DNA from: Escherichia phage vB_EcoS_FFH_1
Reading direction: 5' to 3' (one strand)
DNA: 64,000 bases
Sequence record: KJ190157
The position numbers were made by a program, and so were the translations under genes. Shown here one piece after another: positions 210-33,108 of the stretch (its first letter is position 1; each line of letters begins with the position of its first letter). The notes under the pieces were generated by a model, which made no database searches, had not been told where the DNA came from, and worked only from the letters and a program-made list of their open reading frames with translations.

Positions 210-601
210 ATGAATTTTTAATAAATTTACTTATTGTGTAGGCCACCTGGAGGCTATGAACCCCACGGCTGACAAAGAAGTTTGCGAGACTTCTCTTAAA
301 AGCCAGAATAGACCCGCCGATCTATCGGAACCTACATAATAAGTAAACTTTATAGTGTCATTCTAGACAGGACTCGAACCTGTTATCACTTGTGCGGACT
401 TACGAGAACCATTCTTTCACTCGAATCGAACGAGCTTCTGCCCTAGCCAAGCTGGTTTCCCCATCAACCACGCTAGAATGTTTGATTGTTTTCAGTGCAA
501 GAGTCCGAGTCTTGGACACGACCGCTTCGCAAGTACATAGGCAGCTTATCATGAGTCAGCACTTCCGAATTGCTAGCCCCGTGTTCTGCACTGAAATTTT
601 A

Positions 602-949
602 TTAGTTTAACCGTAAAGTATTATCTACTTCACCATTAATTGTTCGGCATTCCTCTGGGATTGCCGGTGTAGCCTTGTATTCCCACCACTCAGCACCATC
701 ATATTCCCCACGTTCTAGCCAAGTTCCATCGGCAAACCATACATTACCATAAAGTAATTGTCCACCGTATCCAGAATCATATTCAAAGTCTAGGTTATTA
801 AGAAACCCCTCAATGTCTTCTTCTGTATAATCTAAAGGTAATACCCAGACTTTTTTGTCCCCATAATACCCAAATTCTATTTTAATACACTTAACTTTAG
901 AATTGGTATTTTTTAAGGCGAGTAACAGCTCTTCTTTAGCATTACGCAT
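602..949 (-). CDS. Hypothetical protein (115 aa)
   Basis: ORF in the same orientation as the tRNA cluster; no recognisable motif. Confidence 0.45.
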   Translation of the reverse strand: MRNAKEELLLALKNTNSKVKCIKIEFGYYGDKKVWVLPLDYTEEDIEGFLNNLDFEYDSGYGGQLLYGNVWFADGTWLERGEYDGAEWWEYKATPAIPEECRTINGEVDNTLRLN

Positions 950-1246: not shown

Positions 1247-1348
1247 GCTTGTTTCCTCAGTTATTAATGAAAATGGTATCTGTGGCTGAATTCGATGTCA
1301 GCAATGATAGCTGGTTGGCTACCGGTTTACTTAACTCTACACAGAATT

Positions 1349-3529: not shown

Positions 3530-3607
3530 TGGTGGCTCCCCGAGGATTCGAACCTACGTACCTTCCGGTTATGAGCCGGGTGCTCATACCATATGAGCTT
3601 GAGAACC
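3530..3607 (-). tRNA. tRNA with anticodon CAT (Met, fMet or Ile2 type); weak T-stem
   Basis: Anticodon loop CTCATAA, D-arm GCTC...GAGC, acceptor GGTTCTC/GGGAGCC with G-U pairs, CCA encoded. Confidence 0.55.
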
Positions 3608-7812: not shown

Positions 7813-7884
7813 TACCGACCGTAGGATTCGAACCTACATCTTCCACCAGTTACGGCTTGATAATACCAATTATACTAGGACGGC
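7813..7884 (-). tRNA. tRNA-like element or pseudo-tRNA; anticodon stem does not pair
   Basis: Good T-arm GTAGG-TTCGAAT-CCTAC and a 6 of 7 acceptor stem; no CCA encoded. Confidence 0.3.
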
Positions 7885-31993: not shown

Positions 31994-32965
31994 ATGACTA
32001 ATGTAAAAAACTTTATTAAACGTTGCCAAGAAGCGTACTACCAGGGAATGTCTTTAATCTCTGACGAAGAATATGATCGTCTGATTAAAAGATTTCCGTT
32101 AGAAGAAGAGATCGGTCCTAAGGGCGATATTCCACATCTGTATCGTATGTATTCTTTACAGAAAGTTTATTATAATCGTGGAGATAAACCTCCGTTTAAC
32201 CCATTAGGTCAGGTAGAAACTGATAAGTTAGATGGTTGTGCGATTTCTCTGCTATATATTAATGGCGAATTTGTTCAAGCACTAACTCGTGGTAATGGTA
32301 TTCTAGGGAATGATGTCACAAGCAACGTAAGATTGCTGAACATTCCTAAAAAGATTTCCCAAAAAGTACCTACTCAAATCACTGGTGAAGTTCTAATTAC
32401 AAAAGAAGTAGAAAATAAACGTAACTTTGCCTCTGGTGCTATTAACCTCAAAGATAGTGATGATTTCGTACAACGTATCGGGGAAGGTGGTTTAATCTTT
32501 GTTGCATATGGTATCCAGTGTTCTGCTGAATCTGTAGGTATTACAGAAGCATATTTAAAAGATATGCTTTGGCTAGAGAATGAGAACTTCTTAACAGTTG
32601 TTAATGTACGTTCCTTCTTTAAATGGATTCCGACGGACGGTAAAGTTGTTCGTATTAATGACAACAACAAATTCTTCCGCGAAGGCTGGACTAATAAATT
32701 CCCTCGCGGGGCGTTCGCTATTAAAGAGGATGAAGAAGGCGAGATTACAACTCTTACTAAAGTTGAATGGCAGGTAGGGGCTTCTGGTAAAGTAACTCCA
32801 GTTGGTTATTTCGAACCGGTAATTATTGATGATGCTACAATTGTTAAAGCGACTCTTAATAACGTTGATTATATTAACTCTCTCTATCTAGAGATCGGTT
32901 GCCAGATTCGAGTGATTCGTGCTGGTGGTGTAATCCCGTGTATAGTAGAGCGAGTATACGATTAA
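31994..32965 (+). CDS. NAD-dependent DNA ligase, N-terminal part (Ia and adenylation domains plus OB)
   Basis: ISDEEYDRL (Ia domain) and the KxDG adenylation motif TDKLDGCA. Confidence 0.75.
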   Translation: MTNVKNFIKRCQEAYYQGMSLISDEEYDRLIKRFPLEEEIGPKGDIPHLYRMYSLQKVYYNRGDKPPFNPLGQVETDKLDGCAISLLYINGEFVQALTRGNGILGNDVTSNVRLLNIPKKISQKVPTQITGEVLITKEVENKRNFASGAINLKDSDDFVQRIGEGGLIFVAYGIQCSAESVGITEAYLKDMLWLENENFLTVVNVRSFFKWIPTDGKVVRINDNNKFFREGWTNKFPRGAFAIKEDEEGEITTLTKVEWQVGASGKVTPVGYFEPVIIDDATIVKATLNNVDYINSLYLEIGCQIRVIRAGGVIPCIVERVYD

Positions 32966-33015
32966 TACATAACCCTTTGCTACCCATCTACCATATCGGA
33001 ATTATAAAGTGGTTA

Positions 33016-33044
33016 TTGACATTTTCGCCGCTTAGGTATATACT
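33016..33044 (+). promoter_or_regulatory. Sigma70-type promoter TTGACA-17-TATACT inside the ligase split
   Basis: Shares the 13-mer ttgacattttcgc with the promoter at 4418. Confidence 0.45.
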
Positions 33045-33108
33045 ATTATCATTCAGTTGAGGGATAGAAAGTTATGGCGAGGGTAAGCAAAGTTAGTTAA
33101 AATTGTAG

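What the first reader, a model, noticed from the sequence alone, without database searches (positions are those of the whole stretch)
359..480. Two T-arm-like hairpins enclosed by an 8 bp inverted repeat
The minus strand carries two elements resembling tRNA T-arms (GCTCG-TTCGATT-CGAGT and ACAGG-TTCGAGT-CCTGT), but neither has a matching acceptor stem. The only acceptor-like pairing, CATTCTAG/CTAGAATG, spans about 120 nt. This could be a degenerate or fused tRNA, a tRNA-like processing signal or a structured ncRNA.
Basis: seen in the sequence. Interest (0 to 1): 0.4.

Follow-up and report, generated by a model that had tools for sequence, protein, structure and literature searches.

The report
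Phage T5 "RNA2": tRNA-shaped small RNA
The two T-arm-like hairpins belong to the already-annotated phage T5 "RNA2" gene, a small RNA built like a tRNA whose anticodon loop is replaced by a highly conserved 55-base two-hairpin module of unknown function.

Summary
Window 356-480 (minus strand) is 96% identical to bacteriophage T5 rna2, which GenBank annotates as "tRNA-like stable RNA with unknown functions"; BF23 and Salmonella phage 5 carry the same annotation. The window is a T5-like phage, 99.8% identical to Escherichia phage SP15.

The 8-bp inverted repeat is a true acceptor stem. Together with a D arm, a 5-bp anticodon-type stem (called P3 below) and the 3' T arm, it forms a complete tRNA cloverleaf. 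The other "T arm" (hp1) sits inside a 55-nt insert that takes the place of the 7-nt anticodon loop.

Covariation across 22-26 homologues supports five of the six helices: 23-27 of 33 pairs carry compensatory changes. The homologues come from Demerecviridae, Acinetobacter T4-like phages and metagenomes. The hp2 stem is only weakly supported. The insert sequence is far more conserved than the scaffold helices (0.84-0.94 against 0.31-0.42 identity). ARAGORN and Rfam miss the element, but ARAGORN calls a tRNA once a 7-nt loop is substituted for the insert.

It is not a decoding tRNA, a pseudogene, a tmRNA or a coding region. The most likely reading is a tRNA-scaffolded non-coding RNA that is processed like a tRNA and acts through its insert. 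The function remains unknown. The feature is already known; the structure model and the wider family are the added value.

The parts
356..480 (-). Whole RNA2 homologue (125 nt, using the ends annotated in T5: C(-1)AUUCUAG ... CUAGAAUG-ACA)
   Evidence: 96% identical to NC_005859 rna2 at 32959-33083. Covariance model R1 scores it 146.7 bits. Conservation in diverged relatives starts and stops at these ends.
473..480 (-). Acceptor stem, 5' strand (C-1 plus AUUCUAG)
   Evidence: Pairs with 359-366. All 8 pairs carry compensatory changes: AUUCUAG/CUAGAAU, AGACAAU/AUUGUCU, UACGGGG/UCCCGUA, GACUUUG/CAAAGUC, UACUGAC/GUCAGUA.
453..470 (-). D arm: UGGUU-GAUGGGGA-AACCA
   Evidence: 4-5 of 5 pairs covary: UGGUU/AACCA, UGGUG/CACCA, UGACU/AGUCA, CGACU/AGUCG. 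The loop carries a run of G.
448..452 (-). P3 (the anticodon-type stem), 5' strand GCUUG
   Evidence: Pairs with 388-392. Variants are GCUUG/CAAGU, GCCUG/CAGGU, GCCAU/GUGGU, CCCAU/AUGGG. 4-5 of 5 pairs are compensatory.
436..447 (-). J1 linker GCUAGGGCAGAA, start of the insert, with a conserved GG(G)
   Evidence: G39 and G40 are invariant in alignment A2. Mean pairwise identity is 0.58.
   Evidence: The stem covaries: GCUCG/CGAGU, GCUUG/CAAGU, UACGG/CCGUA, GUUGG/CCAAU, GAUGG/CCAUU. 4 of 5 pairs are compensatory in A3. Loop identity is 0.94.
412..418 (-). J2 linker GAAAGAA
   Evidence: Mean pairwise identity 0.85 across 11 lineages.
393..411 (-). hp2: UGGUU-CUCGUAA-GUCCG plus CA, with the near-invariant motif GGUUCNCGUAARUCCGCA
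   Evidence: Identity is 0.84. The stem is only weakly supported: two invariant G-C pairs, one U.U mismatch, 78% of cells paired.
388..392 (-). P3, 3' strand CAAGU
   Evidence: See P3 5' strand.
367..383 (-).
   Evidence: 3 of 5 pairs are compensatory and 97-98% of cells are paired. It abuts the acceptor 3' strand directly.
359..366 (-). Acceptor stem, 3' strand CUAGAAU plus G73 (G73 pairs with C-1)
   Evidence: See acceptor 5' strand. T5 has CUAGGAU, which keeps the pair as U.G.
356..358 (-). 3' tail ACA. Relatives have ACU, ACC or ACCA; the Pantoea and some Klebsiella phage homologues encode N73-CCA.

Best explanation
Window 356-480 (minus strand) is the rna2 gene of a T5-like phage, a non-decoding small RNA built on a tRNA scaffold.

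Shown here. The RNA has a full cloverleaf frame: a 7-bp acceptor stem (plus a -1:73 pair), a 5-bp D stem, a 5-bp anticodon-type stem (P3) and a 5-bp T arm with a UUCGAGU loop. In place of the 7-nt anticodon loop it carries a 55-nt insert: J1 (GCUAGGGCAGAA), hp1 (a second T-loop hairpin), GAAAGAA, hp2 (loop CNCGUAA), then CA. In the scaffold only the pairing is conserved. In the insert the sequence itself is conserved, across T5-like siphoviruses and Acinetobacter T4-like myoviruses.

Inferred. The RNA is transcribed as part of the early tRNA-cluster operon, because there is no promoter of its own between the upstream ORF and RNA2. Host tRNA enzymes would then cut it out: RNase P at the 5' end, and exonucleases plus the CCA-adding enzyme at the 3' end. 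This would yield a stable species of about 121-125 nt. The scaffold would provide processing and stability. The insert, possibly forming a second tRNA-like elbow with hp1 and the J1 G run, would be the working part that binds a conserved host or phage factor that recognises tRNA. It could act as a decoy or a titrator.

Its identity as the RNA2 homologue and the fold are near certain. The specific mode of action is a guess.
For: Identity. The region is 99.8% identical to phage SP15 and 96% to T5, and it maps onto the T5 misc_RNA rna2, "tRNA-like stable RNA with unknown functions". BF23 carries the same annotation.

Fold. On the MAFFT alignment A2 (22 sequences), 90.4% of cells are paired, against 30-45% when partners are slid. 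23 of 33 pairs are compensatory, and 0 of 500 shuffles reach the observed values. On the CM alignment A3 (26 sequences), 27 of 33 pairs are compensatory.

tRNA shape. Model R1 aligns genuine tRNAs end to end at 20-34 bits. ARAGORN calls a tRNA in 7 of 7 lineages once a 7-nt loop replaces the insert.

The insert is the selected part. Mean pairwise identity is 0.94 for the hp1 loop, 0.85 for J2 and 0.84 for hp2, against 0.31 for the acceptor, 0.42 for the D arm and 0.40 for P3.

Modular, tRNA-like placement. The unit sits in tRNA arrays with spacers of about 6 nt next to tRNA CCA ends or the next tRNA. The Pantoea and Klebsiella phage homologues encode N73-CCA.

No own promoter. The only strong sigma-70 match nearby (209 to 181) lies downstream and corresponds to T5 P13a.
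Against: No expression or processing data could be examined here. "Stable RNA" rests on the GenBank annotation alone.

The single-sequence folding energy is unremarkable (z = -0.8 to -0.9), and the MFE fold does not recover hp1.

The hp2 stem is weak.

Four T4-like homologues (L008, L039, L040, L043) lack an acceptor stem. tRNA-type end processing therefore cannot be universal in the family.

No binding partner, target complementarity or known motif was found.

T5 tolerates large deletions in the tRNA region under laboratory conditions (Glukhov et al. 2018, as cited in PMC11464382). That source does not state whether rna2 itself is dispensable.
Confidence: 0.6

Rival explanations
1. A decaying or fused tRNA pseudogene: a former tRNA disrupted by an insertion or partial duplication, with no function of its own.
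For: ARAGORN and Rfam do not call it. There is no anticodon loop. In T5-likes the 5' strand CAUUCU can also pair with an internal AGAAUG, which hints at an origin by duplication (sequence). The tRNA region of T5 tolerates deletions.
Against: The element is kept in more than 480 phage records and in Acinetobacter T4-like phages. There are compensatory changes in every helix except hp2. The insert is the most conserved segment, which is the opposite of what decay would produce.
Confidence: 0.05
2. A pure processing signal: a tRNA-like punctuation element that exists only to direct RNase P or RNase E cleavage of the polycistronic tRNA/mRNA transcript.
For: It has a tRNA-shaped scaffold, lies between an ORF and other RNA genes, and has no promoter or terminator of its own.
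Against: A cleavage signal needs only the acceptor and T-arm stack. That does not explain 26 nearly invariant nucleotides in J2 and hp2 shared across phage families. It also does not explain the homologues that keep the insert but have lost the acceptor stem.
Confidence: 0.1
3. An intron-containing tRNA: the 55-nt insert is removed to give a decoding tRNA.
For: The insert sits exactly where the anticodon loop would be. The first 7 nt of J1 (GCNAGGG) loosely resemble an anticodon loop.
Against: U33 is absent and J1 varies with indels. ARAGORN in intron mode finds nothing consistent: 2 discordant calls in 26 sequences. No match to any Rfam family, which includes the group I introns and the small self-cleaving ribozymes, was reported at E <= 10. 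No splicing machinery for such an insert is known in E. coli (background knowledge). The insert is more conserved than the exons.
Confidence: 0.03
4. A miniature tmRNA relative or mimic: a tRNA-like domain plus a PK1-like pseudoknot. E. coli tmRNA has GCCGAGGG...CUCGUAAA...CCGCA in the same order and topological position.
For: The words are colinear with E. coli ssrA PK1, most clearly in the Epseptimavirus homologues.
Against: The similarity is not above shuffles. For the window and T5, 348-385 of 2000 shuffles score at least as high; for the best case, 83 of 2000. The implied PK1 pairing shows uncompensated changes at the J1 G/U site and at the variable N of CNCGUAA. There is no tag ORF, no G3:U70, and no ARAGORN tmRNA call. 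A D stem is present here, unlike in tmRNA.
Confidence: 0.03
5. A protein-coding region, as annotated ("hypothetical protein") over this stretch in several phage records.
For: Short ORFs overlap it (400-552 on the minus strand, 392-610 on the plus strand). Some GenBank records annotate a CDS here.
Against: Close relatives differ by 1-nt indels (A2 columns 18, 37, 79). The substitutions are pairwise compensatory rather than following codon positions. Conservation stops exactly at the RNA ends.
Confidence: 0.01

Closest known systems
Bacteriophage T5 / BF23 / Salmonella phage 5 rna2 (RNA2), GenBank NC_005859, AY543070, AJ604530, AJ604531
   Same: It is the same gene: 120 of 125 nt are identical to T5. 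The position is the same, after the tRNA-Asp/ORF T5.067 block and before rnaIV and promoter P13a. The ends are the same.
   Different: There are five substitutions. Two keep pairs as wobbles (T5 has U.G and G.U where the window has U-A and A-U). The other three lie in unpaired positions (26, J1 and the T loop). The public annotation gives no structure, family or function. Rfam 15 reported no family match here.
Phage T4 small stable RNAs RNAC/RNAD (species 1 and 2) from the T4 tRNA cluster
   Same: They are small RNAs of about 120-140 nt encoded inside a phage tRNA cluster, with a T-arm-like hairpin near the 3' end (rnaC ends ...CCGGGUUCGAAUCCCGG...ACA). Their biological role is unknown (PMC3014915).
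   Different: There is no convincing homology: R1 gives 16.4 bits, E = 0.05, on rnaC only. The conserved J2-hp2 motif is absent.
Canonical tRNA (Rfam RF00005)
   Same: Acceptor, D, anticodon-type and T helices lie in the standard order and spacing. The T loop is UUCGAGU and the D loop has a GG run. The gene sits in a tRNA array.
   Different: There is no 7-nt anticodon loop and no anticodon. The length is 121-125 nt. ARAGORN and Rfam do not detect it.
Engineered "tRNA scaffold" RNAs (anticodon arm replaced by a cargo RNA for stable expression in E. coli; Ponchon and Dardel approach, recalled from background knowledge and not checked here)
   Same: The architecture and presumed logic are the same: the cloverleaf frame gives processing and nuclease resistance, and the cargo sits where the anticodon loop was.
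   Different: This one is natural and conserved, and its cargo has no known function.
tmRNA tRNA-like domain; bacterial YrlA (Y RNA-like tRNA mimics)
   Same: Both are non-decoding RNAs that reuse the tRNA acceptor/T-arm/elbow architecture.
   Different: tmRNA has no D stem, carries a tag ORF and pseudoknots, and has G3:U70. In YrlA (from background knowledge) the 5'/3' ends lie at the Ro-binding stem rather than at the acceptor. No Rfam hit to either was reported, and the tmRNA resemblance was not significant.

Membership tests
T5 rna2 (RNA2) tRNA-like RNA | Sequence homology to the annotated T5/BF23 rna2 over its full length | tested here: met
   120 of 125 nt identical to NC_005859 32959-33083. 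R1 gives 146.7 bits for the window and 143.8 bits for T5.
T5 rna2 (RNA2) tRNA-like RNA | Same genomic position in the early tRNA gene region | tested here: met
   The order tRNA-Asp, ORF (T5.067 homologue, 602-949), RNA2, rnaIV, promoter P13a is preserved.
T5 rna2 (RNA2) tRNA-like RNA | Accumulates as a stable RNA in infected cells | not testable with these tools
   Only the GenBank note states this. No open-access paper describing it was found.
Canonical tRNA | Cloverleaf helices: 7-bp acceptor, D stem, anticodon stem, 5-bp T stem with a T loop | tested here: met
   All four helices are supported by covariation. ARAGORN accepts the scaffold when a 7-nt loop is substituted.
Canonical tRNA | 7-nt anticodon loop with U33 and an anticodon; length about 70-95 nt | tested here: not met
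   A 55-nt insert replaces the loop and the total length is 121-125 nt.
Canonical tRNA | Detected by tRNA models (ARAGORN, Rfam RF00005) | tested here: not met
   No call at 356-480, even at E <= 10 or with intron mode.
tmRNA | Tag-peptide reading frame with a resume codon, pseudoknots, G3:U70, no D stem | tested here: not met
   No ARAGORN tmRNA call. The 3:70 pair is U-A. A D stem is present. The PK1-like similarity is not significant and does not covary.
T4 RNAC/RNAD | Sequence and structure homology to T4 rnaC or rnaD | tested here: inconclusive
   R1 matches the rnaC region at 16.4 bits, E = 0.05, and does not match rnaD. The resemblance is limited to the T arm and the ACA tail.
Intron-containing tRNA (group I or other) | Recognisable intron or ribozyme core and exon junctions that restore an anticodon loop | tested here: not met
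   No Rfam match. ARAGORN -i gives 2 discordant calls in 26 sequences. J1 lacks U33 and has indels.

The most novel reading that the evidence does not exclude
The RNA2 family may be a natural tRNA-scaffold RNA. On this reading its near-invariant 55-nt cargo (a second T-loop elbow plus the GAAAGAAUGGUUCNCGUAARUCCGCA module) has been exchanged horizontally between T5-like siphoviruses and Acinetobacter T4-like myoviruses. It would work as a decoy or inhibitor for a conserved tRNA-recognising host factor, for example a tRNA-targeting defence nuclease or a tRNA-processing or modification enzyme. That would add a non-decoding RNA to the known role of phage tRNA clusters in evading tRNA-directed immunity.
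Probability: 0.15. Interest if true: 0.7.

Novelty: already known. Interest (0 to 1): 0.35.

Why it matters
The gene itself is old news: it has been annotated in T5, BF23 and Salmonella phage 5. Its function is still unknown, however, no Rfam family match was reported for it, and most T5-like genome records leave it blank or annotate a spurious ORF over it.

The analysis here gives a fold tested by covariation. It shows that selection acts on the insert rather than on the tRNA frame. It also links the T5 RNA to homologues in Acinetobacter T4-like phages. Phage tRNA clusters are now known to counter tRNA-cleaving defence systems such as PARIS and retron Ec78. A conserved non-decoding member of these clusters is therefore a reasonable candidate for experiments.

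Tried and rejected
(1) Rfam at gathering threshold on the whole window and at E <= 10 on 150-960: no family match within 150-960.

(2) ARAGORN in standard and intron modes: no consistent call.

(3) Single-sequence MFE folding: not better than shuffles, and it mis-folds the insert. The structure had to come from comparative data.

(4) tmRNA PK1 mimicry (GCCGAGGG/CUCGUAAA/CCGCA colinear with E. coli ssrA): alignment scores lie within the shuffle range and the implied pairs do not covary.

(5) Antisense pairing of the invariant J2-hp2 segment to E. coli 16S, 23S, 5S, RNase P RNA or tmRNA: no duplex better than shuffled queries.

(6) Pairing of J1 CGAGG or GGG with the hp2 loop (pseudoknot), and J1 AGAA with UUCU: the variable N of CNCGUAA and the J1 G/U polymorphism are not compensated.

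(7) hp2 as an anticodon-loop mimic (CUCGUAA resembles a tRNA-Thr(CGU) loop, from memory): position "33" is the one variable base (U/G/C/A), so this is not supported.

(8) Homology to T4 rnaC/rnaD and to T5 RNA1: only weak CM scores.

(9) Literature searches for a functional study of T5 RNA2: none found in the open-access library.

(10) Pattern scans of genome and metagenome collections added two new lineages (L043, L052). No copy was seen outside phage-like tRNA arrays or phage-sized contigs.

Full report
**Observation**

The minus strand of window 356-480 reads CAUUCUAG-CG-UGGUUGAUGGGGAAACCA-GCUUG-GCUAGGGCAGAA-GCUCGUUCGAUUCGAGU-GAAAGAA-UGGUUCUCGUAAGUCCG-CA-CAAGU-GAUA-ACAGGUUCGAGUCCUGU-CUAGAAUG-ACA.

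The inverted repeat alone is not remarkable. The window holds 61 such repeats, and shuffles give 43-74. T-arm-type hairpins are remarkable: there are 14 in the window, all on the minus strand, against a mean of 0.72 in shuffles. Eleven lie in called tRNAs and two are the hairpins of this finding.

**Identity**

The window is a T5-like phage. Bases 150-960 are 99.8% identical to Escherichia phage SP15 and 96% to T5.

In the T5 reference record the matching stretch carries two misc_RNA features. One is rna2, "tRNA-like stable RNA with unknown functions" (32959-33083). The other is rnaIV, just downstream. A pairwise alignment puts rna2 exactly on window 356-480, with 5 differences in 125 nt. Two of them keep stem pairs as wobbles. 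The BF23 tRNA-region record annotates the same unit as "RNA2, tRNA-like RNA with unknown functions", followed 6 nt later by a tRNA-Gly. The feature is therefore already known and named.

ARAGORN, Rfam at gathering thresholds and Rfam at E <= 10 all fail to report anything here. Many phage records leave the stretch blank or place a hypothetical protein on it.

**Homologues**

BLAST finds the unit in about 480 phage records. In the more diverged Epseptimavirus genomes the match begins and ends at the RNA2 boundaries. More distant copies were found in:
- Pectobacterium phage DU_PP_V;
- Pantoea phage AAS21;
- Klebsiella Sugarlandvirus phages;
- Acinetobacter T4-like phages ZZ1/Henu6, Acj9 and 133, plus an uncultivated relative;
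- one metagenome contig and one phage-like contig in a binned "bacterium" assembly.

In every case where flanking annotation or tRNA scans were available, the unit sits in or beside a tRNA array. It is often about 6 nt from a tRNA CCA end.

**Structure**

A MAFFT alignment of 22 distinct homologues (A2) was scored against a structure I wrote down from inspection. The structure has an 8-bp acceptor (7 bp plus a -1:73 pair), a 5-bp D stem, a 5-bp anticodon-type stem (P3), hp1, hp2 and the T arm.
- 90.4% of cells form standard pairs, against 30-45% when partners are slid by 1-3 columns.
- 23 of 33 pairs show changes on both sides.
- No shuffle out of 500 reaches any observed measure.

The acceptor stem is entirely different in sequence between lineages yet always pairs: AUUCUAG/CUAGAAU, AGACAAU/AUUGUCU, UACGGGG/UCCCGUA, GACUUUG/CAAAGUC, UACUGAC/GUCAGUA. 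hp1 switches between GCUCG/CGAGU, GCUUG/CAAGU, UACGG/CCGUA and GUUGG/CCAAU.

A covariance model built from this alignment (R1) scores family members at 75-148 bits. It scores ordinary tRNAs at 20-34 bits, aligned end to end with the insert skipped. The model-based alignment of 26 sequences gives 27 of 33 compensatory pairs; that alignment leans towards the model. hp2 is the weak helix, with two invariant G-C pairs, a U.U mismatch and 78% pairing.

When the insert is replaced in silico by an arbitrary 7-nt loop, ARAGORN calls a tRNA in all seven lineages tested. In the T5-type sequences it places A1-U72 through G7-C66 with G73 as discriminator. The 8-bp repeat is therefore the acceptor stem of a genuine cloverleaf. 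The 3' hairpin is its T arm. The other hairpin lies inside a 55-nt insert that replaces the anticodon loop.

**What is conserved**

Mean pairwise identity was computed across 11 lineage representatives.

| Segment | Mean pairwise identity |
|---|---|
| Acceptor stem | 0.31 |
| D arm | 0.42 |
| P3 | 0.40 |
| hp1 loop | 0.94 |
| J2 | 0.85 |
| hp2 | 0.84 |

Selection keeps the pairing of the frame and the sequence of the insert.

Four T4-like homologues (L008, L039, L040, L043) keep the D-like region, P3, the insert and the T arm but have no acceptor pairing. They follow a tRNA directly or end in a hairpin plus a U run. Aminoacylation is therefore unlikely to be the shared function. The Pantoea and Klebsiella phage copies encode N73-CCA. 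The T5-type copies have ACA, ACU, ACC or ACCA after G73.

**Expression context**

On the minus strand the order is tRNA-Asp (975-1051), an ORF (602-949), a conserved ~110-nt module (about 486-596), RNA2 (356-480), the rnaIV homologue (about 235-337), and then a strong promoter match at 209-181 that corresponds to T5 P13a. No promoter or intrinsic terminator flanks RNA2. It must be cut out of a longer early transcript, as the neighbouring tRNAs are. This step is inferred.

**Mechanism**

The following are shown: the tRNA frame, the structured insert, and the conservation pattern.

The following are inferred:
- RNase P and 3' trimming with CCA repair release a stable RNA of about 121-125 nt.
- The frame serves processing and stability.
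- The insert is the active part and binds a conserved partner.

The insert contains a second T-loop hairpin next to a conserved G run in J1, so it could form a second tRNA-like elbow. The nature of the partner is unknown. I could not find complementarity to host stable RNAs or any known motif.

**Rejected ideas**

- Pseudogene or fused tRNA. Its conservation and covariation argue against this, and the insert is the best-conserved part.
- Intron-containing tRNA. No consistent anticodon loop can be restored, there is no intron signature, and ARAGORN -i fails.
- tmRNA-like. The colinear words shared with E. coli PK1 are not above chance, and the implied pairing does not covary.
- Coding. There are 1-nt indels among close relatives, and the substitutions are compensatory.
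- Homology to T4 RNAC/RNAD. This is not supported (16 bits, E = 0.05), although they are the nearest functional analogy: small RNAs of unknown role in a phage tRNA cluster (PMC3014915).

**Verdict**

The finding is real and is correctly sensed as tRNA-like. It is the known T5 RNA2 gene. The new content is a covariation-backed model (a tRNA scaffold with a conserved 55-nt cargo in place of the anticodon loop) and the recognition of a family that reaches Acinetobacter T4-like phages. Function remains open. No open-access study of it was found.

Noticed in passing
window ~486-596 (-): A discrete, highly conserved ~110-nt module (AAUUUCAGUGCAG...CUUGCACUGAAAA) lies directly upstream of RNA2. It is closed by a 10-12 bp long-range stem, and its MFE z-score is -2.7. 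In other T5-like phages it starts right after a tRNA CCA end, so it behaves like an independent RNA gene. It is not annotated in T5.
   Followed up: partly
window ~235-337 (-): Homologue of T5 rnaIV ("stable RNA with unknown functions"). It folds into a multi-branch structure closed by a 5'/3' acceptor-like stem with an ACA tail; z = -3.0.
   Followed up: partly
window ~1274-1346 (-): By coordinate offset this is the homologue of T5 rna3 ("putative tRNA-like RNA"), next to tRNA-Asn. Neither ARAGORN nor Rfam calls it.
   Followed up: no
window 3533-3607 (-) and 7813-7884 (-): Two tRNAs are reported by Rfam (40.3 and 35.5 bits) but not by ARAGORN.
   Followed up: no
window 410-415 versus 475-480 (-): In T5-type sequences the 5' strand CAUUCU can also pair with an internal AGAAUG (in J2/hp2). 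Together with hp1 this gives an alternative 71-nt tRNA-sized fold. The internal motif is invariant, but the acceptor differs in other lineages, so the alternative pairing is lineage-specific. It may be a trace of an origin by duplication.
   Followed up: partly
L001 1247-1390 (-) (T5 rna1, outside the window): T5 RNA1 (144 nt) also looks like a tRNA frame. It has a class-II-type D arm (GCCGGAAUUGGUAGACGG), a T arm (GAAGGUUCAACUCCUUC) and a long internal insert. T5 may therefore carry more than one tRNA-scaffolded RNA.
   Followed up: no
L043 7053-7127 (-) (phage-like contig in a 'bacterium' bin): ARAGORN calls the tRNA immediately upstream of the RNA2-like element as anticodon CUA ("tRNA-Pyl"), which is a possible amber-suppressor tRNA. 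The 167-kb contig carries a large tRNA array and looks like a T4-like phage binned as a bacterium.
   Followed up: no
window 392-610 (+), 400-552 (-): Short ORFs overlap RNA2, and several GenBank phage records annotate "hypothetical protein" here. These are probably mis-annotations of the RNA gene.
   Followed up: partly
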